Positions 21,212 through 59,626 of a DNA stretch of 64,000 nt are shown here, one piece after another; the stretch's first letter is position 1, and each line of letters opens with the position of its first letter. Position numbers and translations under genes: made by a program. Under the pieces are notes generated by a model. The model ran no database searches. It was not told the DNA's origin and saw only the letters and a list, made by a program, of their open reading frames with translations. Source of the stretch: Naegleria gruberi. Taxonomy: Eukaryota. The stretch lies in the NCBI GenBank assembly GCA_000004985.1, contig GG738858.1; one strand, written 5' to 3'.

Positions 21212-22187
21212 CGGACCTTTTGAAGCATTGTAATGAACAATTTTGTCTGATAAGAAGAAAATTCCAATCGAGAAGTTTGGGACTCAATTCTTTAATGGCA
21301 TGGTTAAGTAATTGAATAAAAAGACTACAGCACCACAGGTTCCCAAGTTGTCTCCAACCTCAGTACTGATGTGGCTCGACGATGCTTAACTTCTCAAATC
21401 GGACGGGATGAGGTGCATTCATCGTGATATGGCCGTAGCCATTCACATTCTTAAAAAGTTATTCATAAACAACTACCTTAATGATTAAATTAAGAAATTG
21501 GTTAAATCAATGCAAAAGGAATATAAGTTGAAAACGATTTCAATTGTTAATTTGGACGGGAAGCCTGCCAGGAATATGGCGACAATCCCGCTACAGTCTT
21601 TGACTGTATGAACAGTGAAGTCAAGAGTTCTTGGACGAATCTTGTTTGTTCAGGTTATTGAAGAAAGTAAAAAGGTCGATCACTCTTCTACTTATTGATC
21701 ATTTGATATGATGAATTGTTCCATGAAAATTGTTGAATTAAATAGAGGTCACTATTTTCCCTTCCATTTATATATTCTTCATCATGATCCTTAATAAAAT
21801 CTATTAAACCGTCACGAATGTTTAAAAATACATCTGCCTCATACCATGATAAGCAAATATTTCCATGTTGTTTTTCAATATAATATGATATTTGATTTGA
21901 AATTATTTCAAATTGATAAAGAAATACAAGCATATCAATATTTTAATCTTTAACTTGACATGATAAAATAGACTTGTTAAAAAAATCAAATCATATATTG
22001 GCGAAGGTTCTTCCTCATCAATATATTTTATTAACAAAGATTCAACTTTAATTTGTAATATTGTAAGTCTTATCACCTTAATATCTGAATGAGAAATATT
22101 ATTATCTATAACAAATTCTTAATACAATTATTCTTTTATCACCAAAGTAATTGAGCAATTGTTGAAAGAGTAAATAACAATCATTTA

Positions 22188-23067: not shown

Positions 23068-24189
23068 GCTAAGAAGCCTCAAGATATTGACTCCTCTTCA
23101 TCTGATGAAGATCTCCCAGCAGTTGAAGTAGAATACCCCACAACACCAGTGAAAGCAAGAAAACAACAAGCTGCTAAGAAGCTTAGAAAGTTAAAGGCCA
23201 TGTCACCTGTAGCTAATAGAAATAAGCGCAAACAATCTACTTCAGTTTCATCATCTAACAGTGCCTTAGATGATGGTATTTCAACTGTTGTTTCCAGTTC
23301 GTTGCTAAGCAATTCAACTTTGTTGGATAGTTCTTCAACTGCACCCTCTTCGTCAAACAATTCGTCTTCTTCCAATTCAGGTAGAGATAGTTTTGCCAGT
23401 AGTTCATCTGAACATGATATCATGGCGATCAAAGCCCAAATGCAAGAAATGATTGGAGTTTTGAGAACCGTAACAGGAAATATCTCTGAACTTACTAAGA
23501 AAGTTCAGGAGAGAGAAGAAGAATCAGATGATGATTTTGTTAATCCAGAAGCTATATCTCCAGAAGTTTGGTTACGTCAAACTTATAGAGACCTTAGAAG
23601 TTCTTACAATGTTCCTTCATCTATTGGAGATGATTTATTACTTTCTGCAGTATCCTCCGAGATACTTAAAGACCGTAAACAAGAGGAGACCAAGAGAAGA
23701 ATTCAATATTTGCTCCTTAAATACAAGGATGTGATTTCCAAGTTTGCCCCAGACATTAGATTGGATGAGATTAACAGTATTGGTTATTCTAAACTAGTAG
23801 AGTTAACTCAAATCAAAATTGAATTGTTGGAATATGCATTGAATTCTCCACTTGATTTTACAGTCATGACAGAGATTACAGAACTTTGTAGAATGATTTG
23901 CAAAGTTGAAGCCCTCTTCCTTAAAGAAGGTTTACAAGTTTCCACTTTCGATGTTGGTAGAGAATTCCTTAACAGATACATTTCTACTAATAGTTTCGAA
24001 ACTGCTGCCGAAAGTGAACTTCATAATATTAGAACAACATATCATTACTACAAAGCAACCAAGCAGCAACAAGGTCCAAAGGGAATTACCAAGAAGTATT
24101 CTAAGAAGAAACCGTTTCAAAAGAAAAACAATAAGGGTCAAGGAAACGGTGGTAAATTCCAAGGAAAAGATAAGGATAAGTCAGAATGA
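23062..24189 (+). CDS. Retroelement ORF1 (Gag-like; Ser-rich N-terminus, coiled-coil, basic C-terminus)
   Basis: ATG inside repeat A1. 375 aa. A basic KKYSKKKPFQKKNNKGQGNGGKFQGK tail is typical of nucleic-acid-binding Gag. Confidence 0.6.
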   Translation: MVAKKPQDIDSSSSDEDLPAVEVEYPTTPVKARKQQAAKKLRKLKAMSPVANRNKRKQSTSVSSSNSALDDGISTVVSSSLLSNSTLLDSSSTAPSSSNNSSSSNSGRDSFASSSSEHDIMAIKAQMQEMIGVLRTVTGNISELTKKVQEREEESDDDFVNPEAISPEVWLRQTYRDLRSSYNVPSSIGDDLLLSAVSSEILKDRKQEETKRRIQYLLLKYKDVISKFAPDIRLDEINSIGYSKLVELTQIKIELLEYALNSPLDFTVMTEITELCRMICKVEALFLKEGLQVSTFDVGREFLNRYISTNSFETAAESELHNIRTTYHYYKATKQQQGPKGITKKYSKKKPFQKKNNKGQGNGGKFQGKDKDKSE

Positions 24190-26062
24190 CTCTTCCACTC
24201 CCTCCTTCCAAGGAGGAAGATTACAACAGTTTTGGAAAAAGTGGCAAATCTTCCCCAAAACTGTTGCAGAATGGATAAGAGAGGGTATTCCAATCCATTC
24301 AGAAAAAGAAAAATGGATCGATATTCCACTAAGATCTCATTTTTCAGAAAAGGAAGATTCATGGTTAAAGAGCGAAATCTCAGATTTACTCAAAACCAAT
24401 ATTATAGAAATTGGAAACAAGGACACTGTCATAAATCCGATTCACGTGGTTCCGAAGAAAGGCAAAGACCAGTTTCGTCTAATCCTAGATTTGAGATCCA
24501 TAAATGCTGGTATAAACAACGACTCATTCAAAATGGATCATATTCACAAAACTCTAAAGTTTCTATCAAAAGACATGTTAGGAATCAAAATAGATTTGAT
24601 GAAAGGTTATCATCACGTTCCAGTGAAGGAAACAGATCGAAAGTTATTGGGATTCAGGTACAACGGCCAGATTTACCATTACAAGTGCCTACCATTCGGT
24701 CTGAACATTGCTCCAAGATTATTCTCCAAGATAATGAAGGTCTTAGTTCAAAGATGGAGAGTAAGAGGAATCTCGGTATTCATTTATTTAGACGATATCT
24801 TAGTGGTAAATCATTCAAAAGATCAGTTGATCTTAGACAGAGATATAGTTCTAAAGGATTTAGAAGAGTTTGGATTCCTCATTCAAAAAGACAAATGTTG
24901 TTTAAATCCAACTCAATTAATAGAATACCTAGGAGTTTTGTTAGACTTTCATCAAGGTTTGGTAAAAATTCCAGAAGACAAAAGGATTACAGCTTTAGAA
25001 TTCATAGAGGAGCTACTCAATGCTTCCCAGAAACGGCTTTATGTTCCATGCAAGAGAGTTGCCAAGTTCCTAGGAAAGTTGGAATTTCTAACAATTGCCA
25101 ACAAGTACCTTTCACCATTCATGTGTCGTCTTCGAAAGAACATGGTTTCAGTAGTATCAGGAAGAGGTTGGCACGCATCAATGCAAATTCACAAAGGCGC
25201 ATTCAAGGATTTATTGATTCTAAGGGAGTTAATTCAAAAGAACGATGGTCATCCGTTCGAATTGGATTGGATTCTCCCAGTGATTGTGAATTCAGATGCA
25301 ACACCTCAAGGTTTCGGCATTCACTCAGGTTCAATCGTTACTGTTGGAAAGTTCAATGGAGAAGAGCACATCAATGTCAAGGAACTAAGAGCCTTACTGC
25401 TTTATTTCAAACAAGCAGACGAATTAAATCTTTATCCAGATTTCACAAATTTCGAATTGAGAGTAGACAACATGGTAGCCGTGGCATATCTAAAGAAGGG
25501 TTATGGATCAAAAGACGATCTCGCAAAGATAGCAAGAGACATCTCAAAGATTCTAATGAGAAGAAATTGGTGGATTTGCAAAGTGATTTACATCCCATCC
25601 AAACAGAATTTCCTAGCAGACAGGTTGAGTCGATTGATGGATTGGGGATCCACCAAGGAACTAATCGAATTAGTCAACCAAGAATTTGGAATACACCATG
25701 TGGACAGATTTGCAACAACGAGTTCGGCAACTACCCTTGTATTCAATTCATGGAAAGAGAACGACGCGTTCAAAAGTCTTTGGGAAAAAGAACTAGTGAG
25801 TTATTGTGTTCCTCCAATAGGATTGATCAGTCAAGCTCTCATTCATCTTATCAAATCCAGATCAATAGCGACATTTGTAATTCCAGAATGGAGCTCCTCG
25901 ATTTGGTGGCCTCTACTCTTAAAGCTATTAAAGAAGAGAAAAAGTATCACAAGAAGGATGCTTTTAATCAAACTATTATCCGAATTATGGATCAAATTCG
26001 AAGGAACGACGTTCATAATTGCTCATCTGGATGGAAACTTATACTTCAAACCAGAGATTTAG
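23906..26062 (+). CDS. Retroelement pol ORF: reverse transcriptase, RNase H, and the DIRS-type C-terminal HVDRFAT..PP..WW domain
   Basis: The RT motif is FIYLDDILVVNHS (YxDD). The RNase H motif is NFLADRLSR. The C-terminal segment has HVDRFATTSSATTLVFNSW..YCVPPIGLI..PEWSSSIWWP. The frame is open from 23906 with a TTG in the track. The first ATG is at ~23951. It overlaps gag by ~280 nt, so expression is by frameshift or internal start. Confidence 0.75.
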   Translation: MKPSSLKKVYKFPLSMLVENSLTDTFLLIVSKLLPKVNFIILEQHIITTKQPSSNKVQRELPRSILRRNRFKRKTIRVKETVVNSKEKIRISQNDSSTPSFQGGRLQQFWKKWQIFPKTVAEWIREGIPIHSEKEKWIDIPLRSHFSEKEDSWLKSEISDLLKTNIIEIGNKDTVINPIHVVPKKGKDQFRLILDLRSINAGINNDSFKMDHIHKTLKFLSKDMLGIKIDLMKGYHHVPVKETDRKLLGFRYNGQIYHYKCLPFGLNIAPRLFSKIMKVLVQRWRVRGISVFIYLDDILVVNHSKDQLILDRDIVLKDLEEFGFLIQKDKCCLNPTQLIEYLGVLLDFHQGLVKIPEDKRITALEFIEELLNASQKRLYVPCKRVAKFLGKLEFLTIANKYLSPFMCRLRKNMVSVVSGRGWHASMQIHKGAFKDLLILRELIQKNDGHPFELDWILPVIVNSDATPQGFGIHSGSIVTVGKFNGEEHINVKELRALLLYFKQADELNLYPDFTNFELRVDNMVAVAYLKKGYGSKDDLAKIARDISKILMRRNWWICKVIYIPSKQNFLADRLSRLMDWGSTKELIELVNQEFGIHHVDRFATTSSATTLVFNSWKENDAFKSLWEKELVSYCVPPIGLISQALIHLIKSRSIATFVIPEWSSSIWWPLLLKLLKKRKSITRRMLLIKLLSELWIKFEGTTFIIAHLDGNLYFKPEI

Positions 26063-26967
26063 GGATGTTGGTTTCGATTAAGGAAGAAACCTTCAAACTT
26101 TACACTAGAAACTATAATGGTTTCTTATGGTTTATTACTGCATTCAATATTTCAATGGATGACCCTTATGCTATTGAGTATTATGCAGCTTATCTTACAA
26201 TTCAAGGTCAAACATCTCGTGTTGAAGCCTTGAGACCATCCCTTCAATTTTGGGCCAATATTGAGAGAAGAGTTTTTCCAATTTCATGGTCTTATGATAA
26301 GATTAAAAGAGGAATTACTCTTATTTGGTCCTTGATTGATAGAAAAGCTTTGAAACGTGATCCAATTTTCTATCATCATATTGAAGGTTTCATTCAGAGA
26401 AAAGATCATTATGATCCTTTCATTTTCAAACTCACTAGTGCCATGTTAGTCATTGGTTTCAGACTTTTCGCTAGACCAGGTGAATTAGCTAGACTCAAGT
26501 GGGGTTATGTTACAAAGCTTAGAAATGGTAACATCAAATTAGATCTCAGTGGTCACAAAACAGATTTCTTTCTACTAGAAAAGCCGATTACTATTGACAA
26601 GCATCTTGAAAATCCTTCAGTGTGTCCAGTGAAATTGCTTTTTGATTACATAGACACTGTACAGCATTTCAAAAAAGCAGATTCACCATTGTTTTCATTG
26701 CAGGACAATATTTTCTTCAACACTGAAGATGTTTCTCAACTTATCAAGAATGCTATGTTCTCTGTTGATTCAGAAATCACTGTTTCTGGTCACAGTTTAC
26801 GTATTGGTGCAACTACTGAGAGTATTATCAAGGGAATTCCTACTCAGGATATTATTATGGGGACTAGACATAAGGATGTGAAATCTTTACAACCTTATCA
26901 AAGACAAGAAGCTCTTGCAGCTCGCCACTTGTCTACTACTCTCCTTTCTCGGGACAATATCCATTAG
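24232..26967 (+). CDS. Retroelement ORF with a C-terminal tyrosine recombinase domain (~26063..26967); its N-terminal 1.8 kb is an overprinted open frame over pol
   Basis: The C-terminal 300 aa contain ARPGELARL, GHSLRIGATT (HxxR) and a downstream Tyr, as in DIRS/Ngaro YRs. The upstream part is a 600-codon stop-free frame overlapping the RT frame. It translates as R/S/K-rich low complexity. Confidence 0.55.
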   Translation: MEKVANLPQNCCRMDKRGYSNPFRKRKMDRYSTKISFFRKGRFMVKERNLRFTQNQYYRNWKQGHCHKSDSRGSEERQRPVSSNPRFEIHKCWYKQRLIQNGSYSQNSKVSIKRHVRNQNRFDERLSSRSSEGNRSKVIGIQVQRPDLPLQVPTIRSEHCSKIILQDNEGLSSKMESKRNLGIHLFRRYLSGKSFKRSVDLRQRYSSKGFRRVWIPHSKRQMLFKSNSINRIPRSFVRLSSRFGKNSRRQKDYSFRIHRGATQCFPETALCSMQESCQVPRKVGISNNCQQVPFTIHVSSSKEHGFSSIRKRLARINANSQRRIQGFIDSKGVNSKERWSSVRIGLDSPSDCEFRCNTSRFRHSLRFNRYCWKVQWRRAHQCQGTKSLTALFQTSRRIKSLSRFHKFRIESRQHGSRGISKEGLWIKRRSRKDSKRHLKDSNEKKLVDLQSDLHPIQTEFPSRQVESIDGLGIHQGTNRISQPRIWNTPCGQICNNEFGNYPCIQFMERERRVQKSLGKRTSELLCSSNRIDQSSSHSSYQIQINSDICNSRMELLDLVASTLKAIKEEKKYHKKDAFNQTIIRIMDQIRRNDVHNCSSGWKLILQTRDLGMLVSIKEETFKLYTRNYNGFLWFITAFNISMDDPYAIEYYAAYLTIQGQTSRVEALRPSLQFWANIERRVFPISWSYDKIKRGITLIWSLIDRKALKRDPIFYHHIEGFIQRKDHYDPFIFKLTSAMLVIGFRLFARPGELARLKWGYVTKLRNGNIKLDLSGHKTDFFLLEKPITIDKHLENPSVCPVKLLFDYIDTVQHFKKADSPLFSLQDNIFFNTEDVSQLIKNAMFSVDSEITVSGHSLRIGATTESIIKGIPTQDIIMGTRHKDVKSLQPYQRQEALAARHLSTTLLSRDNIH

Positions 26968-29813: not shown

Positions 29814-29840
29814 ATAAAAAGATTTGTTTGATAAAAGGAA

Positions 29841-29928
29841 GGGTGGTACGTGGATCGAACACGTGACCATCGGATGTCTCCTGCAATTAACTTTGCAATC
29901 CGGTGCTCTACCGCTGAGCTAACCGCCC
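29841..29928 (-). tRNA. tRNA-Cys(GCA) with a 17-nt intron at the canonical 37/38 position
   Basis: Minus-strand read: GGGCGGT-TA-GCTC-AGCGGTA-GAGC-A-CCGGA-TTGCAA[AGTTAATTGCAGGAGAC]A-TCCGA-TGGTC-ACGTG-TTCGATC-CACGT-ACCACCC. T-arm is perfect. Acceptor has 6 of 7 pairs. Anticodon is GCA. The intron contains TTGCA, self-complementary to the anticodon loop. ORF 30154..30351 and others nearby are spurious. Confidence 0.7.
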
Positions 29929-30242
29929 TTGTGTTGCAGTCATAAAATATTAACTTATTGCTGTTAGCATTTATTAAGGTTAAATTGTATTGATGAACAA
30001 TTTATTGTGCTCCCTATGATTTTTCTTCTTGTTAACCATCATTCTCACTATTTTCCCAATCATATTGAGCTAGTAATTCTGTAATCTTTTCGTGTAATTA
30101 AAAAATTAGGAAAAGCTATCATCACACCATGCCATGGATGGCTGGCCTGTTTATCAGGAGGAATCAGTAATTCCTTTATTCACAGAGGCACCACTCTGGT
30201 CCAACTCTGCTGATAGTAATAAAGAATAAGAAAAAAGGTTAG

Positions 30243-30315
30243 CTCCCCCTGGTGGGCTCGAACCACCGACCTGCAGATTAACAGTCTGACGCTCTACCGA
30301 CTGAGCTAAGGGGGA
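30243..30315 (-). tRNA. tRNA-Asn(GUU)
   Basis: Minus-strand read: TCCCCCT-TA-GCTC-AGTCGGTA-GAGC-G-TCAGA-CTGTTAA-TCTGC-AGGTC-GGTGG-TTCGAGC-CCACC-AGGGGGA-G. Canonical cloverleaf with anticodon GTT. No intron. Confidence 0.85.
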
Positions 30316-31854: not shown

Positions 31855-33086
31855 ATGCTCAAGAATACATTGGCTCTATCAGGCGTTGAATTTGATGATG
31901 AAGATCCAGTGTTAGATAGTGAGAACCCTAAAATTCTCTTGTTGGGATCAAGTAAGTTCTTGTACATTCGCATACAATAAACGAAAGTTCAGATGATTGT
32001 GGAAAGACAACGCTCATGAATAGAATACTTGGAAATGCAAAACAAATTGCAATGCAATACATTCATAACGATATTTTAAACAATATTCGAAAGGTCTGCG
32101 AAAAGTGTGTCAATACTCAATCCATTTCGTCTCGTTTACATCAGCAATACCTTTCGTATTGCAAAACACTGATTGAATCAGCTCCCAAGAAAGACTTGGA
32201 ACAGTCACCAACCAATTCGAAAACAATGAATTCATTTCCATCAAAATCTTCACCAGCTTTGCTTGTTCCAAAAACGGCAGAAATGATCATTGATTTATGG
32301 ACGAATTGTTTAGTTTTCAAAGAAACTTTTGACAAGTATAGGGATGAATTGAATGTGAGTGATTCGTGTGAATATTTCTTCAATTCTTCAACGTTGGATC
32401 GATTGTGTAAGGCTTCGAATATTCCCAATTTTGAAGATTCTCTTCGTATTCGAATGGAAACTAAAGGAGTCGATACAAGAAAAGTGTACTATAGTGAAAC
32501 AGAAGGATTTCCAAAACTCCAACAACTAGCTATGGATGAGAAATTCCTCAAACAATATCCTAACTGTATTTCTGTATTAGATTTTGGTGGAAATTGCCGA
32601 AAGAAATGGAAAGGTTACTTCCACAACATTACATTATGTGTATATTTAGTCAATTTAAGTTCGTTTAATAAGAAATCAAAAGAAAATCCAGAAAAGAATG
32701 AACTTGTTGATAGTTTAGAACTGTTTGAAGAAATGGTCAACCATGAAAGTTTCAACAATATTCCAATTCTTCTCCTATTTAATAAGGTCGAGAGATTTTC
32801 AAGTCTAATTGAGAGTGGAAATGATTTATGTAAAATATTTCCAGAATATGAGAATAGAGGGCAATCTGCTAAAGAACGAATTGAATCTTCCCTTTCTTTT
32901 CTAAAATTGAAATTTGAATCAAAAGCTTGGTCAAGGAAAGATTATTTACATTGTCGATTTGTTTCATTGCTGAATAATCAGGATTCCAATCAAGTGCTCA
33001 TGGAAATGCTAACACTAAGTAAATTACTGAAGGAAGATTTTGTTTCAGATAATATTGACAAGAAGAAGAATTGTCTCATCATGTAA
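31855..33086 (+). CDS. Divergent heterotrimeric G-protein alpha-subunit-like GTPase (paralog 1), 2 exons
   Basis: Exon 1 is 31855..31951 (MLKNTLALSGVEFDDEDPVLDSENPKILLLGS, TCA A|gtaagt). The 41-nt intron is 31952..31992 (..ttcag). Exon 2 is 31993..33086. G-motifs present: P-loop GSNDCGKTT, switch-I R..TKGV, DFGG (weak DxxGQ) and NKVE (NKxD). There is no N-terminal MGxxxS or Cys lipidation motif. Confidence 0.65.
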
Positions 33087-34745: not shown

Positions 34746-36124
34746 GATGCTTCGCTCCACAGGTGATCGTTCTGAAGTCGATCTAGACGAAATGCTAGAG
34801 CAAGATCAAGCTAAAATACTTTTATTTGGTTCAGGTATGTTGTAATGCAAGCCAAATAGATTAAATTATTATTCGAAACTTAGGCGATAGTGGCAAAACA
34901 ACCTTGTTAAAACAAATTCACGGAATGACATTTTCCAAATATTACAATCCAACACGTCTCGTGGGATCCATTGTTCAAGACATTCTCAAGAATGTAAGAT
35001 TAGTTTGCGAGAGATGCATCGAGGGAGGACAGATTAGTCAGGAAGAGTTTTCACAATGTGACTATATCATTCAGATTGCAAAATCAACGAATAGCACCTC
35101 CACACCAAAGAAATCCACAAGCACAACTCAGGATTCACCACTTCCTAGCTCACCAATCAACACGCCAGATAAGAGATCAAGTTATGGAGCTAATGCATCA
35201 TCACCTGTTGGTGGTGGTGGACATGGTGCTTCACCTGGAAGTGGAGCTGGATCACCATCTCGCATGAATAACTTGGTGAGTAAGATGGACGATGATTTGC
35301 CTGATAAGATTCTGAGATTATTGAATCATTCAGAAATATTTAGGAAAACTGTCGAATCATGCAGGGAGAATGAAAGATTGTCGGATGGAATTGAACATTT
35401 TTTGTTAAATTCATCAAATTTGAGAAGAGTTTGTGAGTTTAATTATGTTCCTTCGATAGCAGATATTGTATATTCAAGACAGAAAACAGTGGGTCTCATA
35501 GAAACGAGTATAAGATATCATGAAGTTGATGGATTTCCAAAGAAGGAAATTCACAACTTTAACGATTTGGAAAAACAATTTCCTAGAACCTTAAAACTTG
35601 TTGATACCGGTGGTCAATCATCTGAAAGAAGAAAATACAAGAATGTTTCATTTAGTAGTGTAAGAGCCTGTGTTTTTGTGGTCAACATGTCAGGTTTCAC
35701 TAAAAGTCTATACGAGAATGAGAATGTTAATGATCTGATTGATTCCATTGAACTTTTCAAAGAGTTATTCAATCAGCCATTCTATGAAAATGTACCAATA
35801 CTATTACTATTCAATAAGATGGACATGTTTAGCTATCAAATTCAGAAAGGAAAAGATTTAAGTTCTCTCTTTCCAGAATTTGACAATAATGCAACGATTT
35901 TAGAGGAAAAAGTTGATAACTCTCTCAAATTCCTATTCAAAAAGTACAAGGATACTCTAAATTCTAATCCAATACGAGTGCAATACATGCCAACCGCTCT
36001 AACTGATTTGAAAGATGCTCAGAAAGTATTCGAAAGAGTTATGGAACTGAGCGAATTACTAACTTGTCCCGAAAGAAACAATGAAATGACTTCTAATGAT
36101 AAGAAAAAGTGTACCATCATGTAA
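34746..36124 (+). CDS. Divergent G-alpha-like GTPase (paralog 2), 2 exons; exon 1 carries an apparent +1 frameshift
   Basis: Exon 2 is 34884..36124 with (G)DSGKTTLLKQIHG, RQKTVGLIE, LVDTGGQSSERRKY and LFNKMD, and looks intact. The ATG at 34746 (MLRSTGDRSEVDLDEMLE) is homologous to paralog 1 (MLKNT..). A single extra C near 34800 (gagCcaag) puts QDQAKILLFGS|gtatgt in another frame. The 49-nt intron is 34835..34883 (..acttag). Confidence 0.55.
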
Positions 36125-36148: not shown

Positions 36149-37828
36149 TTATTGAGATGGAGTTGAAGGATTCAACCATGGTTTAGTCACTCTTGATACT
36201 GCCTTTTCAGATTGGAGGAAGGAGAGCAAGAGGCCATAATTAGTGATTGGAACACCTGCTTTGGATAGGTCAGAGAGACGGGCATTCATCTTTTGCTTAT
36301 CAATCATACATCCTCCACAGTGAATAATGAGTTTGTATTGGGAGAGATCCTTAATAAGCTGATACTCTCTGCCAAAGACAATATCCACCTTGATATTTCC
36401 CTGTCCAAATCTTTTTTCAATTGCTCTTGGTATTTGAACAGTACCGATATCATCTGCAATTCTGTTGTGATTACAAGCTTCACAGAGTAAGACTGAATCG
36501 CCTGGTTGGAGAGCTTTGAATGCTTCAATTCCTTTCAAAAATTCTGAAAGTCTTCCATTACTCATAAAGTTAATCATAATGACACTGAATGTAGTGATAT
36601 CAATAATACTCTCCTTTGTTGCCTCATCAATAGTCCATGGATGCACAATATCCATAGCTTGCGAGTCGGTAATTAAGAGTTGTAATTTTCCATTTGAATT
36701 AAGAGTTTTGATGGCTTCGAGGAATCTCTTCTTCTCCTTTTCCACAAGCTCCTTATCCGAACTTCTTGCATGTTTCAAATTCATTCTATATGAAAATACA
36801 TTGCTATACTCCCTGAGTAAATATTCATGAACCATGGCTTGAGGTTTGAGTAATCTACCAGATGGTGTCTCCTCATCCATTGGAATATTCAAAAATACAG
36901 TAGAGTTTTCCATTAAATTTGGAAGTAATCTTGTTGGATACATTGGAGTAGAGCTTGCCTTCATTTTACTCTTCTTGTGGCAATCTTCAATGAACTTGAT
37001 ACATTTGGTGTGAGCAATTTTTGATTCCAAATCCACACATGTAGTTCCACAGAAGTACTTATTCATTTGAACATTTCCCTGTTGCTCAAATTCATTGACT
37101 TTCAAATCAGTTTCAATCGAATCCAGCTTATCACTCAAACTCTCCACAGATGATCTCTTCAACTCGGAAACATTGAATATAATACAGAATGGTCTTTCAT
37201 TCTTTTCACACTCACCAGTCAACCATTTGGCTTGTTGAACACTGCTACCATTGAAAGGATCCACCACTACAACCACAATATCGGACTCTTTAAGGGCAAT
37301 CAGTGTTTTTTGTCTCTTCTTTTCGCCAAGATCTGATGCCTCATCAGTACCTGGTGTATCAAATAACTTTGTTGGACCAATACCGTGCAACTCCATAGTT
37401 GTCATCTTTACATCAGCAGTTGTACCAGGTGTAGAATCCACAATACTAGTATTTGAATTGGTCAAACAGTTCATCAGAGTTGATTTTCCACTATTCATAG
37501 CTCCAACAATTGCAATATTTGTCCTTTCAATGTAAATCGAGCCAATATTATTAGCACTATCACTTAAACTCACTCCAGAATGGAATAATTGTTTAGAATT
37601 CATTGAAAATTCCTTCATCATTATCTTTGTATTCATCATCATTTTCCATTCCGATGATCTTTTCACAGCTGATAATAATGGAAAATCCAACAATGAATTA
37701 CATTGTTGTATTGGCAATGATCTCCTCACAAGAGGTGAGGAACACAATGTTCGGATCAAGTGTTGTTGATGTGATTTCATTTTTTTAAAGTGCTTTTTCA
37801 TAAAACTAACCTTTTTAGTAACTTTCAT
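36149..37828 (-). CDS. hydF: [FeFe]-hydrogenase maturation GTPase HydF with a basic, Ser-rich N-terminal extension (organellar targeting-like)
   Basis: ATG confirmed at 37828. The GTPase region has G1 IAIVGAMNSGKSTLMN, G2 DSTPGTTAD and G3 LFDTPGTDE. The C-terminal FeS-binding signature is CEACNHN ... HCGGC (CxH...HCxxC), which is diagnostic of HydF rather than Era/EngA-type GTPases. The ~100-aa K/R/S-rich leader (MKVTKKVSFMKKHFKKMKSHQQHL...) precedes the GTPase region. Confidence 0.7.
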   Translation of the reverse strand: MKVTKKVSFMKKHFKKMKSHQQHLIRTLCSSPLVRRSLPIQQCNSLLDFPLLSAVKRSSEWKMMMNTKIMMKEFSMNSKQLFHSGVSLSDSANNIGSIYIERTNIAIVGAMNSGKSTLMNCLTNSNTSIVDSTPGTTADVKMTTMELHGIGPTKLFDTPGTDEASDLGEKKRQKTLIALKESDIVVVVVDPFNGSSVQQAKWLTGECEKNERPFCIIFNVSELKRSSVESLSDKLDSIETDLKVNEFEQQGNVQMNKYFCGTTCVDLESKIAHTKCIKFIEDCHKKSKMKASSTPMYPTRLLPNLMENSTVFLNIPMDEETPSGRLLKPQAMVHEYLLREYSNVFSYRMNLKHARSSDKELVEKEKKRFLEAIKTLNSNGKLQLLITDSQAMDIVHPWTIDEATKESIIDITTFSVIMINFMSNGRLSEFLKGIEAFKALQPGDSVLLCEACNHNRIADDIGTVQIPRAIEKRFGQGNIKVDIVFGREYQLIKDLSQYKLIIHCGGCMIDKQKMNARLSDLSKAGVPITNYGLLLSFLQSEKAVSRVTKPWLNPSTPSQ

Positions 37829-37971: not shown

Positions 37972-39462
37972 TTAGAAGGATAGGTTGAGAATGGATATTT
38001 CTGGTGGGCAGAATAATCGAAGAGGATAATGACTTCCTAAACCAGCAGAGGTGTGAATAAATTGTCTCCTCTCGATTTTGTAAGTTCTGTAAATGAGTTT
38101 GATTTGATAATCATCAGCCGAGTCGACTACATCAATATTTCTAGCTTGTTGTTTGTGATGATGGAGCACACTGTCGATGAGTGTAGAATCGTCCTGCAAT
38201 CTCAATTCATATAGACCAACTCCCCATTCCCAATACTTGCAAACATTCAATAGTCTTTGAACAATTCTCAATCCACTAATTCGTTGCCTTACAAATTTCC
38301 ACAGAGTAACCTTCTTGTAAATGAAAATAATTATTGGAATTATAGGAAGGTAGGTGAATATTCCTTCATTCATCTGATGAACCTGTTCATAGGAAAAATG
38401 ATGTTGAACAAAATGATCAAATGTTGCTTCCTTTACACTAAGTTTCCAAAAGAGTCCTAGTACGTTTTTCAGAATTATTGAAGGTATTGGTAATGTCACT
38501 TGGCCACCTAAATATTTGATAAATGAAATATGTTAAATATGTTAAAATTTAAAGAAAATATCGAACATACCATGAGTGTGTCCACACAAAACCAAATCAA
38601 AATGGAAAACGTCATTCTTAATCCAAGCAACAGTGTCTGGGTTGTGGCTCAATACAATTCTCAAAGTATTCTCCTTGATAGGACTCTCGTTCATTTCCTT
38701 TACAATTTTATGATAATTATCCCAATAGAGTGGACTGTAAAAATCTAAAAATCCCCACAACTCAATATCAAACTTGAATTCCTTAGTTTCCTTTGTAACT
38801 TTAGCAAAGAATTGATGATTATTAGCTTTTGAACCAGCATCTAATATTGTGACAGCTCTTGATAATTTTTTGATTACCTCCTCCTTATCGAGAGGATGGG
38901 TCTTACTCTCATCATGATTTCCTAACACTGCAAAAACTCCCAACTCTGAATATTTTGATAATTTAGAGAAGAAATTATCCACAACCCAATCCACATCAAC
39001 CTTGTAAAATTTATCAACAAAATCTCCAGTCAATACTATCATGTCAATATTTGGAATGTATTCAATTTCCACAAGAATATCCTTCAATTGTTGTTTGCTA
39101 ATCTTATGATATCGAACGTGTCGTCTCAACCAATACCAACAAGCCCAGATTTTAGTATAATACGAACCTGCTGATCCCAACCAATCTGGAGGATCTGCAT
39201 AATAATCAAAATGAAAATCAGTCAAATGTAATATTTTCAGTCGGCGTCTATTTACATGATTAGTTTTCAAGAAGGAAATTGCATCTACATCAGACAAATT
39301 AATATAATGTTCCTTGATATATAATTTACTAAACACATTCAACAATGGAAAGGTAATCCACTTGAATAATTGTACCAAAATTATTAAATATTCATATAAC
39401 AACATTCCGATCACTGATAAAAACGTTATGTTTCCATGTTTCTGCTTTGATAGTTTTTTCAT
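37972..39462 (-). CDS. Membrane-anchored metallophosphoesterase (calcineurin-like phosphoesterase; GDxxD/GNHD/GHTH), 2 exons
   Basis: ATG at 39462. An N-terminal TM helix is present. Exon 1 is 39462..38571, ending CAT G|gtatgt. The 63-nt intron is 38570..38508 (..atttag). Exon 2 is 38507..37972, beginning GT GGC CAA GTG (..CGHTHG-GQVTLPIPSI..). The phase-1 join was verified. Confidence 0.65.
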
Positions 39463-51337: not shown

Positions 51338-53574
51338 TTAAAGTATTTTCTTTTCGAGTTGTTTGAGAATATTTTCGAGTAACTCAACAATTTTTGTGGT
51401 TCTGTTTTTGCACTTGGTTTCATCGAAATCTGAGAGATTAGTCAATTTCTTGACTTCGTTGTTGATATTCAATGGTTCCTTATTCAAGTATTTCAATCTG
51501 TTTTCATCTGTGGTATCCTTTGTGAATGATTTACCACATAGAGTAAAGTTACCAATTTGGAGATAGCAATTATCCATCTTCTTAGCCAATAATGGTTTGA
51601 TATTGCATAACTTGAGATTACGAGGATATTGCAAGTCGAAATTAGATGCATTCGGATCAGAAAGGAAGTCTTCAATGATTGGTAAAACAGTTGAGAAAAT
51701 CTTTTTAAGCTCATTACTTTGTTTCTTCTTTGATGGGGCAGTGCTGTCATTATTGGCTAATCTAATGATCTTCTTGCTCCATTGTGAATAATTGGATTCC
51801 TCACTGTCATCACTTGCCTTTTTGCCTCCCTTTTTCTTGCTCTTTGTCTTGGTCAATATGGTTGTGAGTTCCTTAAAATCAACAACTTTGTTGTTCAAAA
51901 GATTACTGATCTCAGCCATCATGTAAGAGAACTTGACCTTGGCAAAGTCACACAAGCAAACTTGGAGTACGTGATTGTGCCAAATTGCAATTAATTGCAA
52001 TACATCTGCTTCTTCAACCTTGGAACTGACATTATAGGTGAGAAAGTGTTGGCCATGTTCCTTGCAATGTGCAATAGCAATAAGAGTTGCTAGGACTATA
52101 TCTGAGGCCACTTTTTGTGCCTTTGGGAGGTAATTTTCAGCAATGTGGTGTGTTCTGCTGATCATCTTGTTAATAAGGTGATTCTTCTCATTATTAGTGG
52201 AGAATACAGGACGATTTGCTGAACTCTTTGATTGATGACCAATGAAAATAGGAGTCATGTAATTGTTCATGAAAGTTTCACCAAGATTTTCAATATTGAC
52301 AGTTGTCTTCATGTGGGAGGCAATTTGGTCAAGAAGTTTCAAATATTCTCTATTGCTAACATTCACATTCTTTGTTGGGTGTAGCAATTGATGAATGTTT
52401 TCAAGAATATTTGAGAAATCTTCGCCAACTTCTTGATACATGTGATTCCAAGAATCAACCATTTCTTGATTCTTTTGGTGATTGTGGCAACCAAATAATC
52501 TTCCAAAATCAAGCTTGAGTTTGTCCATTGGTGACAAATCCTTTCCTCTCAAATTCAAAGTACCAAAGATTGCTAGTTCATTAGCATGTTCTGGAACTGT
52601 AATGGTAACAACAATACAATTGTGACTCAAGAAGTGAATGAAATCAACCATTTCTTCTTGTTTCTTGAAAAGCTTTTTGATTTTAAGGATGGAATGCAAG
52701 AAGTTTTTGGCACAATTCATGGCAGAAGTGGAAGTAATCTCCTTTGCTTCTTCGAGCTTGGTGATTATTTCATCAACCTTGCTCTTCTTAAAGTCACCCT
52801 CGTCCATACTGGCCTTCTTTAAAATGTTAGCAAATCCCTTCTCTTCGACAATGTACTTTTTAAAGAATGTCTTTTCCTTTCCTGCTACACCTTCTTCATC
52901 ATTGCAAACCTCAATTCTTGCTTGACCTTTCAGAGTTCCCTTGTGAATCTTCAAGTAAACTTTGCTAATTGTCTCAAAATTTTCTTCATACTTTTTCTTA
53001 TTGATACATTCTCTGAGGGCAGAGTAAAGAATGGAGAGAGAGGTCAATCTTTGTTGACCATCTATTACTTGTTGTCTGTTACCTGCCTTTAGGACAATGG
53101 AGCCAATAAAGTAGCTGCTCTCTGGTTCATTCTTGTTATACTCATTGTAGACATCATCAAGAAGGTCCATAATGTTGTCGATCTCCCAAGCATAAGGACG
53201 TTGGTATTCAGGAATAGAATAGCACAATTCAAAAAGATTGTCAATTGCTCTATTGTTGGTGGTCAACTCCCAAGCTCTTCTTTCTGAGGCAACTATCTTT
53301 GGAGGAACAGGTGGACTGAATGTGAGTGGAGAATCTGTTGAAAATGGAAGAGAGGTATCACTCTTAGAGCTTGATGGAGTTGCTGGTTGTGAAGAAGAGG
53401 AAGGAGTACTGGCGATAATGGTTTGTTCCTTCTTGGTCTTCTTCTTGTCTTTCTTTGGGGTAATGTCAGAGCAGTCTCTGGTGTTTTTCTCTTCTTGTCT
53501 ACCCCCTTTGACCACTCGGGAACCCCTGCTTCACATTCAACTTCATGAACTATTTCACTATTGAAACAGTTCAT
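51338..53574 (-). CDS. DUF262 (GmrSD-N / ParB-like nuclease fold) domain protein with a low-complexity N-region, 2 exons
   Basis: The DUF262 motifs are IPEYQRPYAW ... IDGQQRLTSL and a downstream LNLRGKDL block. The main frame has no ATG before the domain; the track start is GTG. Exon 1 is 53574..53503 (ATG, MNCFNSEIVHEVECEAGVPEWSKG). The 50-nt intron is 53502..53453 (gtagac...ccaaag). Exon 2 is 53452..51338, beginning KDKKKTKKEQ. Phase 0 on both sides. Confidence 0.6.
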
Positions 53575-59400: not shown

Positions 59401-59626
59401 GATCTTGAATATATTCACAAGCTGGAATGTTCTTTCTCTTCTTAAATTGTTGTACATGTTCATAAATCTTGTTGTTTTTAGAAACCCGTTCCTTGCAGAC
59501 TGCCGAAAAATGGTTTGCAAGTAAAATAAAACTCAGAGTTTCGGATGCTGAATTGTTAAATACGACCTGATGGTCATTGGAAGGCAAAAAATTTATCAGC
59601 AAATCTGAGAATGAATCTTTCACCAT
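56456..59626 (-). CDS. 1056-aa protein built of ~21 tandem ~48-aa repeats (DUF4116-like: D(R/K)E(I/F)VL.AV(K/R).(N/D)G.AL.YAS.EL(K/R).D)
   Basis: ATG at 59626. Example repeat units: DREIVLEAVKQDGLVIEYVPEHLKDREIVMEAIKNSKYS... and DREFVLQIVKMKGDSLKDVSKELKKDKEIVMEAVKSNGMALYYV... Confidence 0.55.
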   Translation of the reverse strand: MVKDSFSDLLINFLPSNDHQVVFNNSASETLSFILLANHFSAVCKERVSKNNKIYEHVQQFKKRKNIPACEYIQDHPFPDNDCKLAFLKTLKIEGQLLEYASEDLQNDETVALVALREHYSAIKFVGKKLKSQREFILKVLKLKSNLYYDEEILFEHLPEFHNDDELMKLAIKQQPKCLKFASSQLKNSRDIVLEAVKQDGLVIEYVPEHLKDREIVMEAIKNSKYSCVLQHAPTFSNDKEVILLAAKNSGFSFSYASEKLRSDREFVLQIVKMKGDSLKDVSKELKKDKEIVMEAVKSNGMALYYVDHGYFCSDRSFVKELVLLGSSVNSSAFSSRIARELIHDREFVLECISGAGNSLSFLDYGGSSLVNHSDFVDELIDIQCQYSSAMWTSKDYFNSLNEERQLRIIRIDPVCLEHCKGELKNSRQLVLDYILQDRKILESLNDELRNDREIIRLAIKEHYGALKFASAELQNDKSLLQEALLYDTGNYNYASEELKTDKEILEFLIGRDGCYFEYAPESWKNSRDFVVKAIRNSMSNISDFLGYSLKEDRDLILEYVRRIGSIEEIPQEYKQDRDIVLEAVQLDGNNLKYASHSLQQDRELLIVAVRNGLSLRNINESELDREIVYEACRYDTHPLKYVPEEYRDEEEIVQAIAFSENASSFEYVSERLRNNIDFIRKLTRINGYLIQYIPKYLRNDREIALNAIRHGCNYLSEDLQNDKELILTGLKYSASCYRYASGEMKSDGEVLEALRKWLPPHLNIPFPLNKEMAAIALSIKSLNEFDYTFRDDRQFALLAVNARMMNLMYVSNRLRLDRTFILEIEPKQFDILFIPITLREDREIALKSLELNGRSIMYLSNELKHEFKNDREIMLKAIKSDAIAFLFASEELQHEEEFILECAGVNGKVLQYVPHKFAYNRNVVLKCVQNHEEALQYASNKFLGDKECVMYASGQGKSFNSFCYASFDMRNDPEIVLKAVQSDVTSLKLASYEIISDEDFIEKAMDINIEALCYAHYSLRYNTEFLKRMNKNNRIVESGSKIFRRAIDFNSLLEV

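What the first reader, a model, noticed from the sequence alone, without database searches (positions are those of the whole stretch)
36149..37828. HydF [FeFe]-hydrogenase maturase with a targeting-like leader implies a hydrogenase maturation system in this eukaryote
The diagnostic HydF FeS ligands (CEACNHN ... HCGGC) sit downstream of an Era/TrmE-like GTPase domain with GxxNxGKST, TPGTT and DTPG. A ~100-aa K/R/S-rich N-terminal extension suggests import into a mitochondrion-related organelle. Established knowledge: HydF acts with HydE and HydG to assemble the H-cluster of HydA, and only a limited set of eukaryotes carry this bacterial-derived module. The partners are not in this window.
Basis: partly seen in the sequence, partly recalled or inferred. 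Interest (0 to 1): 0.6.

Follow-up and report, generated by a model that had tools for sequence, protein, structure and literature searches.

The report
Known Naegleria gruberi HydF maturase gene
This is the already annotated Naegleria gruberi gene for HydF, one of three helper proteins that build the metal centre of the hydrogen-producing enzyme. The identification is correct but not new, and the only open point is whether the protein works in the mitochondrion or the cytosol.

Summary
Window 36149-37828 (minus strand) is one intron-free ORF of 559 aa. About 100 aa of basic, serine-rich, acid-poor leader precedes the point where bacterial HydFs begin.

[quoted passage not shown] So the window is N. 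gruberi nuclear DNA, and the gene has been known since the 2010 genome paper.

HydE, HydG and HydA are not in the window. They are encoded elsewhere in the genome, and the hydrogenase is active (literature).

The protein belongs to the published "HYDF clade I" (eukaryotes plus Anoxychlamydiales). This clade lacks the canonical NKxD G4 motif, has C-N-H in the cluster motif, and carries a 17-aa insert. That explains why it scores below the TIGR03918 cut-off.

Localisation is contested:
- A 2014 study found HydA and HydE in the cytosol.
- A 2021 organelle proteome lists HydA, HydE, HydF and HydG in the mitochondrial cluster, without comment in the main text.

N. gruberi has aerobic mitochondria, not a reduced organelle.

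Verdict: already known, low interest.

The parts
36149..37828 (-). Complete intron-free hydF ORF, 559 aa plus stop codon at 36149-36151. It equals XP_002679321.1 from Met17 onward.
   Evidence: ORF listing. 100% identity to the 543-aa N. gruberi protein P0001, accessions EFC46577.1 / XP_002679321.1 / D2V9E8.
37523..37828 (-). N-terminal leader, residues 1-102. It has in-frame ATGs at M1 (37828), M10 (37801) and M17 (37780, the annotated start). It is basic, Ser-rich and acid-poor, and resembles a presequence.
   Evidence: Bacterial clade-I homologues start 3-4 aa before this point. Other heterolobosean leaders are 70-88 aa and unconserved apart from the last ~10 aa, 'IGS[IV]YIER'. Composition. 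In the AlphaFold model residues 2-29 form a helix at pLDDT 50-64 and residues 35-94 have pLDDT below 50. TargetP mitochondrial score 78 in PMC8134430 Supplementary Data 2.
36953..37522 (-). Era/TrmE-type G domain, residues 103-292.
   Evidence: MMR_HSR1 covers residues 104-219 at E=5.8e-21. The region aligns with the G domains of HydF 5kh0 and 3qq5. Model pLDDT is above 90 over most of it.
37478..37504 (-). G1 / P-loop, GAMNSGKST (residues 109-117).
   Evidence: G109, N112, G114, K115 and S116 are nearly invariant across 63 clade-I HydFs.
37418..37432 (-). G2 / switch I, TPGTT (residues 133-137).
   Evidence: G135, T136 and T137 are invariant.
37349..37360 (-). G3 / switch II, DTPG (residues 157-160).
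   Evidence: D157, T158 and G160 are invariant.
37163..37174 (-). Degenerate G4, N-V-S-E (residues 219-222), at the position of the canonical NKxD.
   Evidence: It aligns to NKID of 5kh0. Among 155 clade-I sequences none has NKxD and 153 keep the Asn. Among 94 clade-II sequences 50 have NKxD and 79 have Asp at position 4. Relatives: NISE, NVSD, and NIIE in Willaertia genomic DNA.
36572..36910 (-). HydF dimerisation domain, residues 307-419.
   Evidence: PF18128 at 26.9 bits, cut-off 23.4. Aligns to residues 184-261 of 5kh0.
36713..36796 (-). Clade-I-specific segment FSYRMNLKHARSSDKELVEKEKKRFLEA (residues 345-372). It is 17 aa longer than in canonical HydF.
   Evidence: This segment is 28 residues in clade I and 11 in clade II. 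R348, L351, R355 and E365 are invariant within clade I.
36188..36544 (-). HydF cluster-binding ('tetramerisation') domain, residues 429-547.
   Evidence: PF18133 at E=5e-39. Aligns to the C-terminal domain of 5kh0 and 3qq5.
36467..36481 (-). E450-A-C452-N-H454, the first half of the [4Fe-4S] ligand motif (ExCxH).
   Evidence: E450, C452 and H454 are invariant. The middle residue is Asn in 148 of 155 clade-I sequences and Thr or Ser in clade II.
36308..36322 (-). H503-C504-G-G-C507, the second half of the [4Fe-4S] ligand motif (HCxxC).
   Evidence: H503, C504, G505 and C507 are invariant. Coordinates.

Best explanation
This is the nuclear, single-exon hydF gene of Naegleria gruberi (XP_002679321.1), a member of the eukaryote/Anoxychlamydiales 'clade I' of HydF.

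Inferred from what is established for the HydF family: the mature protein is a dimer or tetramer. Its C-terminal domain holds a [4Fe-4S] cluster through C452, C504 and C507, with E450, H454 and H503 nearby. It serves as the scaffold on which the [2Fe] subcluster precursor made by the radical-SAM enzymes HydG and HydE is assembled and then passed to apo-HydA. The N-terminal G domain (G1-G3 intact, G4 degenerate) couples nucleotide binding or hydrolysis to interaction with and release from its partners.

Shown by published data: the gene is expressed as protein in aerobic axenic culture.

The ~86-102 aa leader is most likely an N-terminal mitochondrial presequence that takes at least part of the protein, together with HydE, HydG and HydA, into the aerobic mitochondrion. 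That last step is the weakest and is contested.
For: Identity:
- 100% match to the N. gruberi protein.
- Profile, sequence and fold all point to HydF.
- All ligand residues and G1-G3 residues are invariant across 63 homologues.

Eukaryotic nuclear context:
- Neighbours include proteasome alpha, two G-alpha genes, Myb and gelsolin.
- The metallophosphoesterase-hydF gene order is shared with a Naegleria-like contig.

Clade:
- The score gap and motif split match HYDF clade I of Stairs 2020 (PMC7449678).
- A crude NJ tree puts Naegleria and Willaertia among eukaryotic sequences.

Partners and activity:
- HydA, HydE and HydG exist, and hydrogenase activity has been measured (PMC4007538; PMC7326272 for N. 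fowleri).

Expression and organelle association (PMC8134430 Supplementary Data 2, Sheet 1, 'putative mitochondrial proteome'):
- HydF has 15 unique peptides and 42.4% coverage.
- Its log2 LFQ rises 22.5 -> 24.6 -> 26.8 towards the densest, most mitochondria-rich fraction.
- HydE, HydG and HydA behave the same way, as does the first-listed entry of that proteome sheet, HslU (26.8 -> 31.0).
- TargetP mitochondrial scores are 78 (HydF), 96 (HydG) and 56 (HydE).

Leader features: net charge +13, first acidic residue at position 48 (position 32 from Met17), a predicted N-terminal helix, then a disordered stretch.

Precedent: the Acanthamoeba clade-I HydF is mitochondrial (PMC3785491; PMC13632651).
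Against: - Tsaousis et al. 2014 (PMC4007538) found HydA and HydE, and hydrogenase activity, exclusively in the cytosol of N. gruberi by immunofluorescence and fractionation.
- In that study the N-terminal regions of HydA and HydE did not import GFP into yeast mitochondria.
- Later Naegleria papers treat the pathway as cytosolic.
- HydF itself has never been localised with a specific reagent.
- Gradient co-fractionation cannot exclude another dense particle or adhesion to the outside of the organelle.
- The leader's hydrophobic moment is modest when counted from Met17 (0.27, against 0.54 from Met1), and the true start codon is unknown.
- The G4 motif is not NKxD, so 'GTPase' is assumed rather than shown.
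Confidence: 0.6

Rival explanations
1. It is the same HydF, but exclusively cytosolic. The leader is a lineage-specific, non-targeting extension, and H-cluster maturation takes place in the cytosol, as concluded in 2014.
For: - PMC4007538: HydA and HydE are cytosolic by immunofluorescence and western blot of fractions, hydrogenase activity is only in the cytosolic fraction, and the N-terminal regions of HydA and HydE are not imported by yeast mitochondria.
- The leader sequence is not conserved among Naegleria species and Willaertia.
- Most of the leader is predicted to be disordered.
- Hydrogenase and its maturases are down-regulated together with other extramitochondrial iron proteins under iron starvation in N. 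fowleri.
Against: - All four Hyd proteins fall in the mitochondrial cluster of a proteome built from seven mitochondrial isolations, with enrichment profiles matching the first-listed entry of that proteome, HslU.
- The 2014 antibodies were heterologous, raised against Trichomonas hydrogenase and Mastigamoeba HydE.
- The mitochondrial control in 2014 was membrane-bound SdhB, which does not report matrix leakage (my inference).
- Presequences are normally poorly conserved in sequence, so lack of conservation is not evidence against targeting.
- HydF itself was not tested.
Confidence: 0.33
2. It is not a functional HydF but a diverged Der/Era/MnmE-like GTPase or a decaying relic. The arguments are that it misses the TIGR03918 equivalog cut-off and lacks the NKxD motif.
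For: - TIGR03918 scores 282.3 bits against a cut-off of 325.55.
- G4 is NVSE.
- NCBI names several bacterial clade-I homologues 'tRNA modification GTPase MnmE' or '50S ribosome-binding GTPase'.
Against: - Both features are shared by the whole of clade I: 264-326 bits against 485-558 bits for clade II, and 0 of 155 clade-I sequences have NKxD.
- Clade I includes HydE-HydF fusion proteins (P0083 and P0093) and the Acanthamoeba HydF found in mitochondria.
- Der, MnmE and Era models match only the G domain, at 74 bits or less.
- All cluster ligands are invariant.
- The ORF is intact, the protein is detected with 15 peptides, and the organism has an active hydrogenase.
Confidence: 0.02
3. It is a bacterial contaminant or assembly artefact rather than a gene of the eukaryote.
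For: The family is of bacterial origin, and the closest prokaryotic hits are Anoxychlamydiales and Delongbacteria at 46-49% identity.
Against: - GC content is a uniform 31-37% across the window.
- The gene lies between typical eukaryotic genes. A G-alpha gene ends 24 bp from its stop, and a metallophosphoesterase gene lies 143 bp upstream.
- The same gene order occurs in a related Naegleria-like contig.
- Orthologues at 67-79% identity exist in N. lovaniensis and Willaertia.
- It carries a eukaryote-type leader.
Confidence: 0.01

Closest known systems
Naegleria gruberi NEG-M '[Fe] hydrogenase maturation protein' XP_002679321.1 / EFC46577.1 / UniProt D2V9E8 (Fritz-Laylin et al. 2010 genome)
   Same: Identical over all 543 aa of the annotated protein. 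It is the same gene.
   Different: The window ORF can be read 16 codons further upstream, from M1 at 37828. The annotation starts at M17 (37780). Which ATG is used is not known.
Acanthamoeba castellanii HydF (P0014), clade I
   Same: 48% identity. Same three-domain architecture, the same clade-I signatures (no NKxD, C-N-H, 17-aa insert), and a sub-threshold TIGR03918 score of 264 bits. The host is an aerobic amoeba with classical mitochondria.
   Different: Acanthamoeba HydF has been detected in mitochondria, and the pathway is shown there to be mitochondrial. For Naegleria the location is disputed. The database model of the Acanthamoeba protein lacks the leader.
Solved HydF structures: Thermosipho melanesiensis 5kh0, Thermotoga neapolitana 3qq5, T. 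maritima 5lad (clade II)
   Same: Same fold over about 450 aligned columns (Foldseek E=1.8e-22 to 1.6e-17). Same G1-G3 motifs and the same ExCxH...HCxxC cluster motif.
   Different: Only 22-26% identity in the structural alignment. The clade-II proteins have NKID at G4, C-T-H instead of C-N-H, no 17-aa insert in the dimerisation domain, a shorter linker between the G domain and the dimerisation domain, and no leader.
Anoxychlamydiales HydF and other bacterial clade-I HydFs (Stairs et al. 2020, PMC7449678)
   Same: 47-49% identity for the four named Anoxychlamydiales hits. Same clade-I signatures. Published as the sister group of eukaryotic HydF.
   Different: No N-terminal leader, with only 3-4 aa before the G domain. 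They are encoded in hydEFG gene clusters, whereas the Naegleria gene stands alone among unrelated nuclear genes.
HydE-HydF fusion proteins (HydEF; P0083 and P0093; I take them to be green-algal, the sources give no organism)
   Same: The HydF half is clade I, 45-46% identical, and also lacks NKxD (FNLKG / FNSKQ).
   Different: In these proteins HydF is fused to HydE in one polypeptide. Here HydF is a separate protein and hydE lies elsewhere in the genome.
YchF/OLA1 (analogy for the G4 motif only)
   Same: Its G4 motif is NxxE instead of NKxD, which is linked to a preference for ATP over GTP (PMC8779481). The Naegleria HydF G4 is N-V-S-E.
   Different: This is an unrelated subfamily of P-loop NTPases. 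The resemblance covers four residues and has not been tested. Most clade-I HydFs have N-x-F-x rather than NxxE.

Membership tests
HydF ([FeFe]-hydrogenase maturation GTPase) | N-terminal Era/TrmE-type G domain with P-loop (G1), switch I Thr (G2) and DxxG (G3) | tested here: met
   MMR_HSR1 at E=5.8e-21. GAMNSGKST, TPGTT and DTPG are at residues 109-160. The residues are invariant or nearly invariant across 63 homologues.
HydF ([FeFe]-hydrogenase maturation GTPase) | Central HydF dimerisation domain (PF18128) | tested here: met
   26.9 bits against a gathering score of 23.4, covering residues 307-419. The score is weak because of the 17-aa clade-I insert.
HydF ([FeFe]-hydrogenase maturation GTPase) | C-terminal cluster-binding domain (PF18133) with CxH...HCxxC [4Fe-4S] ligands | tested here: met
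   133 bits, E=5e-39. C452, H454, H503, C504 and C507, plus E450, are invariant.
HydF ([FeFe]-hydrogenase maturation GTPase) | Three-domain HydF fold | tested here: met
   AlphaFold model with pLDDT 83.5 and pTM 0.78. The top five Foldseek PDB hits are all HydF (5kh0, 3qq5, 5lad), E=1.8e-22 to 1.6e-17; the next hits are G domains only, at E of 1e-7 or weaker.
HydF ([FeFe]-hydrogenase maturation GTPase) | Score at or above the curated cut-off of the NCBIfam equivalog model TIGR03918 | tested here: not met
   282.3 bits against a cut-off of 325.55. This holds for clade I as a whole: five clade-I proteins score 264-326 bits, while three clade-II proteins score 485-558 bits. The cut-off is tuned to clade II, so I treat it as a property of the model and not as a defining feature of HydF.
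HydF ([FeFe]-hydrogenase maturation GTPase) | HydE, HydG and an [FeFe]-hydrogenase HydA are present in the same genome | tested here: met
   They are not in this window. N. gruberi HydE XP_002671091.1, HydG XP_002671139.1 and HydA XP_002674266.1 are documented with sequences and peptides. This is literature evidence; the genome itself could not be searched with these tools.
HydF ([FeFe]-hydrogenase maturation GTPase) | Biochemical function: binds [4Fe-4S] and the 2Fe precursor, hydrolyses GTP, activates apo-HydA | not testable with these tools
   No experiment on the Naegleria protein was found.
Canonical (clade II, Thermotoga/Clostridium-type) HydF | G4 motif NKxD, C-[TS]-H cluster motif, short dimerisation-domain segment | tested here: not met
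   The window protein has NVSE, C-N-H and a 28-residue segment where clade II has 11. It is therefore not a clade-II HydF.
HYDF clade I (eukaryotes + Anoxychlamydiales + mixed bacteria; Stairs 2020) | Groups with eukaryotic and Anoxychlamydiales sequences, with the shared signatures seen here (only the Asn of G4 retained, C-N-H, 17-aa insert) | tested here: met
   The best hits are eukaryotes, Anoxychlamydiales and Delongbacteria. There is a score gap to clade II. Signatures: 153 of 155 sequences keep the Asn, none has NKxD, and 148 of 155 have C-N-H. NJ tree. The clade definition comes from PMC7449678. No bootstrap or ML tree was made here.
N-terminal mitochondrial presequence | N-terminal, net positive, lacking acidic residues, rich in Ser/Thr/Leu, able to form an amphipathic helix | tested here: inconclusive
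   Net charge +13. The first Asp or Glu is at residue 48 (residue 32 from Met17). Ser is 15.7%. Helix 2-29 is predicted at low confidence. The maximum hydrophobic moment is 0.54 from M1 but only 0.27 from M17. The published TargetP score is 78. I could not run a dedicated predictor.
N-terminal mitochondrial presequence | Demonstrated import and cleavage | not testable with these tools
   Literature on HydA and HydE, and proteomics on all four Hyd proteins, conflict: cytosol, mitochondrial cluster. No data on the mature N-terminus were found.

The most novel reading that the evidence does not exclude
Clade-I HydF proteins, including this one, may not be guanine-specific GTPases. None of the 155 sampled clade-I members has the NKxD specificity motif. 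The Naegleria/Willaertia version (N-[VI]-[SI]-[DE]) matches the NxxE motif that accompanies ATP use in YchF/OLA1. If so, H-cluster maturation in eukaryotes would be driven by ATP or by a promiscuous NTPase.

A second, less novel, open reading is that the whole Hyd machinery of N. gruberi is mitochondrial after all, as the 2021 proteome implies. I put that at roughly 0.55-0.6. It would reverse the accepted 'first cytosolic maturases' view.
Probability: 0.2. Interest if true: 0.45.

Novelty: already known. Interest (0 to 1): 0.15.

Why it matters
The gene adds nothing new. N. gruberi HydF and its partners have been annotated since 2010 and discussed in several papers.

Its wider relevance is to the debate on how aerobic eukaryotes came to carry the bacterial-type hydrogen-producing machinery, and where that machinery operates. 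N. gruberi is cited as the only case where hydrogenase and its maturases work in the cytosol. However, a published organelle proteome lists all four proteins, including this HydF, as mitochondrial, and its main text does not mention hydrogenase. Resolving this would decide whether Naegleria is a second example, after Acanthamoeba, of an aerobic mitochondrion that also houses a hydrogenase.

The missing NKxD motif across the eukaryote-type clade raises a small, testable question about which nucleotide these maturases use.

Tried and rejected
1. An exact look-up of the 559-aa ORF found nothing, because the database model starts at Met17. The identity was resolved through.
2. I searched for partner genes in the window. 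tblastn with two HydE-HydF fusions hit only the HydF part. Pfam scans of the 25 other ORFs of at least 250 aa found no Radical_SAM or Fe-hydrogenase domains. HydG was not probed with a HydG sequence, and exons shorter than 250 aa were not scanned.
3. I considered whether the sub-threshold TIGR03918 score and the missing NKxD indicate a non-HydF or decaying gene. I rejected this because both are properties of the whole clade.
4. I considered whether the Willaertia orthologue really lacks the G4 region (38 aa are missing in P0004). I rejected this. The genomic DNA encodes the segment, and the gap is a frameshift or false intron in the gene model.
5. A literature search for 'HydF' plus 'NKxD' found nothing. 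A search for the accession in main texts found nothing; it appears only in a supplementary table.
6. Contamination or HGT artefact was rejected on genomic context.
7. There are no RNA genes or repeats in the locus itself. The short antisense ORFs inside the gene are treated as chance.
8. The NJ tree has no support values, so I use it only as consistent with the published phylogeny.
Full report
**1. The observation**

The coordinates match exactly one ORF: 36149..37828 on the minus strand, 559 aa, starting at ATG.

| Motif | Residues |
|---|---|
| GAMNSGKST | 109-117 |
| TPGTT | 133-137 |
| DTPG | 157-160 |
| CEACNHN | 449-455 |
| HCGGC | 503-507 |

Profile, sequence and fold searches all identify HydF:
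- Pfam gives HydF_tetramer (E=5e-39), MMR_HSR1 (E=5.8e-21) and HydF_dimer (E=5.2e-6), all above their gathering scores.
- The best NCBIfam model is TIGR03918 GTP_HydF at 282 bits. Der (74 bits), MnmE (68 bits) and Era (53 bits) match only the G domain.
- The three best solved structures by sequence are the three HydF entries 5kh0, 3qq5 and 5lad.
- An AlphaFold model built on 63 homologues (mean pLDDT 83.5, pTM 0.78) has the same three entries as its best Foldseek matches, over about 450 aligned columns.

**2. What and whose gene it is**

[quoted passage not shown] Its accessions are EFC46577.1, XP_002679321.1 and UniProt D2V9E8, from strain NEG-M. The window is therefore N. gruberi nuclear DNA.

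The context agrees with this:
- GC content is a uniform 31-37%.
- The neighbours are ordinary eukaryotic genes: proteasome alpha subunit, two G-alpha subunits, a Myb factor, a gelsolin-repeat protein, LRR and F-box/UBC proteins, and a reverse-transcriptase element.
- A G-alpha gene on the other strand ends 24 bp from the hydF stop codon.
- A metallophosphoesterase gene ends 143 bp upstream of the first ATG. The same metallophosphoesterase-hydF order occurs on a Naegleria-like metagenomic contig.
- Orthologues exist in N. lovaniensis (79% identity), an unnamed Naegleria-like organism (79%) and Willaertia magna (67%).

Bacterial contamination is excluded.

**3. Partners**

No HydE, HydG or HydA is encoded in the window. 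The HydE half of two HydE-HydF fusion proteins finds nothing by tblastn. None of the 25 other ORFs of at least 250 aa has a radical-SAM or hydrogenase domain.

The partners are encoded elsewhere in the genome. HydA is XP_002674266, HydE is XP_002671091 and HydG is XP_002671139. N. gruberi produces H2 through an active [FeFe]-hydrogenase (PMC4007538; PMC8134430 Supplementary Data 2).

**4. Anatomy and clade**

A search of 1.8 billion representative proteins shows a clear score gap. One group scores roughly 220-670 bits and contains eukaryotes, Anoxychlamydiales, Delongbacteria and others. The bulk of bacterial HydFs score 200 bits or less.

The two groups differ in discrete characters:

| Character | Long-insert group (155 sequences) | Short group (94 sequences) |
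|---|---|---|
| Canonical G4 motif NKxD | 0 | 50 |
| Asn of G4 retained | 153 | 69 |
| Asp at G4 position 4 | 10 | 79 |
| Cluster motif | C-N-H in 148 | C-[TS]-H in 89 |
| Dimerisation-domain segment (window residues 345-372) | 28 residues (17 aa longer) | 11 residues |

This split corresponds to "HYDF clade I" and "clade II" of Stairs et al. 2020, who also place Anoxychlamydiales as sister to eukaryotes (PMC7449678). My NJ tree, which has no support values, is consistent with that.

The split also explains why the window protein misses the TIGR03918 cut-off (282 bits against 325.55). Five clade-I proteins, including the mitochondrial Acanthamoeba HydF, score 264-326 bits, while three clade-II proteins score 485-558 bits. 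The sub-threshold score is a limitation of the model and does not indicate decay.

Within clade I the following residues are invariant or nearly so across 63 sequences:
- the G1-G3 residues;
- N219;
- E450, C452, H454, H503, C504 and C507.

**5. Mechanism (inferred from the family; not tested for this protein)**

HydF is the scaffold and carrier of H-cluster biosynthesis. The C-terminal domain binds a [4Fe-4S] cluster through three cysteines, here C452, C504 and C507. From memory of the 5kh0 work, an exchangeable Glu acts as fourth ligand; E450 sits at the matching position, two residues before the first Cys. The 2Fe precursor made by HydG and HydE is assembled on HydF and transferred to apo-HydA. 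The G domain gates the interactions with the partners.

The protein is made under aerobic axenic growth, with 15 unique peptides and 42% coverage.

**6. The leader**

There are 102 residues (86 from the annotated Met17) before the position where bacterial clade-I HydFs begin. The median over the 121 aligned sequences is 4 residues, and the bacterial examples have 3-4.

Its properties are:
- 12.7% Lys, 4.9% Arg, 15.7% Ser, net charge +13;
- first acidic residue at position 48;
- a low-confidence helix at residues 2-29, followed by about 60 residues with pLDDT around 40.

The other heterolobosean leaders are 70-88 aa long and equally basic and hydroxylated. They are unrelated in sequence except for the last ~10 residues, IGS[IV]YIER. 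All of this is typical of presequences. A published table gives TargetP 78, PSORT II 52 and MultiLoc 33 for mitochondria.

The experimental record conflicts:
- Tsaousis et al. 2014 found HydA, HydE and hydrogenase activity only in the cytosol. The N-terminal regions of HydA and HydE were not imported by yeast mitochondria. HydF was not tested.
- Horvathova et al. 2021 fractionated N. gruberi mitochondria in seven isolations and assigned 946 of 4198 proteins to a mitochondrial cluster. Their Supplementary Data 2, Sheet 1, lists HydF (log2 LFQ 22.5 -> 24.6 -> 26.8 towards the densest fraction), HydE, HydG and HydA. These profiles resemble that of HslU, the first entry listed on that sheet. The word 'hydrogenase' does not occur in their main text.
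- A 2026 paper still calls the Naegleria localisation "not yet rigorously defined".

I lean towards at least partial mitochondrial residence, at about 0.6. My reasons are that four proteins behave alike in an unbiased assay, that the 2014 antibodies were heterologous, and that the 2014 mitochondrial control was a membrane protein that would not reveal matrix leakage. That last point is my own inference.

**7. Novelty and score**

The gene, its family, its partners, its clade and its predicted targeting are all published. Two points are not obviously in the literature I could search:

- Clade I universally lacks NKxD. The Naegleria/Willaertia form is N-[VI]-[SI]-[DE], which matches the NxxE motif linked to ATP use in YchF/OLA1 (PMC8779481). 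This resemblance is a lead only and has not been tested.
- The 2021 proteome contradicts the 2014 localisation without comment.

Neither point changes the verdict on the finding as submitted: it is a correct identification of an already known gene. Interest is 0.15.

Noticed in passing
window 36149-37828 (HydF); literature tables: [quoted passage not shown] Their abundance rises towards the mitochondria-rich fraction. This contradicts the accepted cytosolic localisation (PMC4007538), and the main text of that paper does not mention hydrogenase.
   Followed up: partly
window 37163-37174 (-), residues 219-222: The G4 motif is NVSE, not NKxD. None of 155 clade-I HydFs has NKxD, and most have N-x-F. 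Naegleria and Willaertia have N-[VI]-[SI]-[DE], which resembles the NxxE of the ATP-preferring YchF/OLA1. Nucleotide specificity of eukaryote-type HydF may differ from the textbook 'GTPase'.
   Followed up: partly
proteins P0022, P0031, P0038, P0043, P0072, P0085; NCBI names bacterial clade-I HydFs 'tRNA modification GTPase MnmE', '50S ribosome-binding GTPase' or 'GTPase'. The TIGR03918 cut-off (325.55 bits) lies at or above their scores (264-326 bits), so clade-I HydFs are systematically under-annotated.
   Followed up: yes
L001:3001-4574 (Willaertia magna JBEGDK010000129.1): The W. magna HydF gene model (P0004, 488 aa) lacks about 38 aa, including the G4 strand. The genomic DNA encodes the segment (…GKWLIQQATLNEKPFCILFNIIERKRK…) and then shifts frame in an A-rich run. 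The 'intron' is an annotation or assembly artefact.
   Followed up: yes
window 37780-37828 (-): There are three in-frame ATGs (M1, M10, M17) at the 5' end, and the database model uses M17. Only 143 bp separate M1 from the end of the upstream gene. Reading from M1 makes the N-terminus much more Lys-rich and raises the hydrophobic moment of the first helix (0.54 against 0.27).
   Followed up: partly
window 34904-36124 (+) and 32016-33086 (+): Two G-protein alpha-subunit paralogues lie about 1.8 kb apart on the same strand. The second is convergent with hydF, with the two stop codons only 24 bp apart, so the 3' UTRs must overlap or be extremely short.
   Followed up: no
window 37972-39462 (-): The metallophosphoesterase gene is split into two ORFs (38542-39462 and 37972-38499) but aligns as one 476-column match to the 456-aa orthologue on L002. 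A short intron or stop lies around 38500-38541. The gene order metallophosphoesterase -> hydF is conserved with L002.
   Followed up: partly
window 23906-26967 (+): Overlapping long ORFs of 718 and 911 aa, the first with a reverse-transcriptase domain (RVT_1, E=4.8e-26). This is probably a non-LTR retroelement copy.
   Followed up: no
window 51338-53515 (-): A 725-aa ORF carries a GmrSD_N (DUF262-type restriction endonuclease N-terminal) domain, E=4.3e-32. This is a bacterial defence-type domain in a eukaryotic nuclear context.
   Followed up: no
window 56456-59626 (-): A 1056-aa ORF consists of about 20 DUF4116 repeats (600 bits).
   Followed up: no
window 21322-21440 (-), 30242-30315 (-), 29840-29928 (-): A 5S rRNA gene (105 bits) stands alone among protein-coding genes. 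There is a tRNA-Asn(GTT) and a second, 89-nt tRNA match that ARAGORN did not call (possibly intron-containing or long-arm).
   Followed up: no
literature (PMC7326272): In N. fowleri, HydE and HydG carry consecutive gene IDs (NF0081220 and NF0081230), suggesting they are adjacent. Both are down-regulated, together with the hydrogenase, under iron starvation. HydF is not listed there.
   Followed up: no
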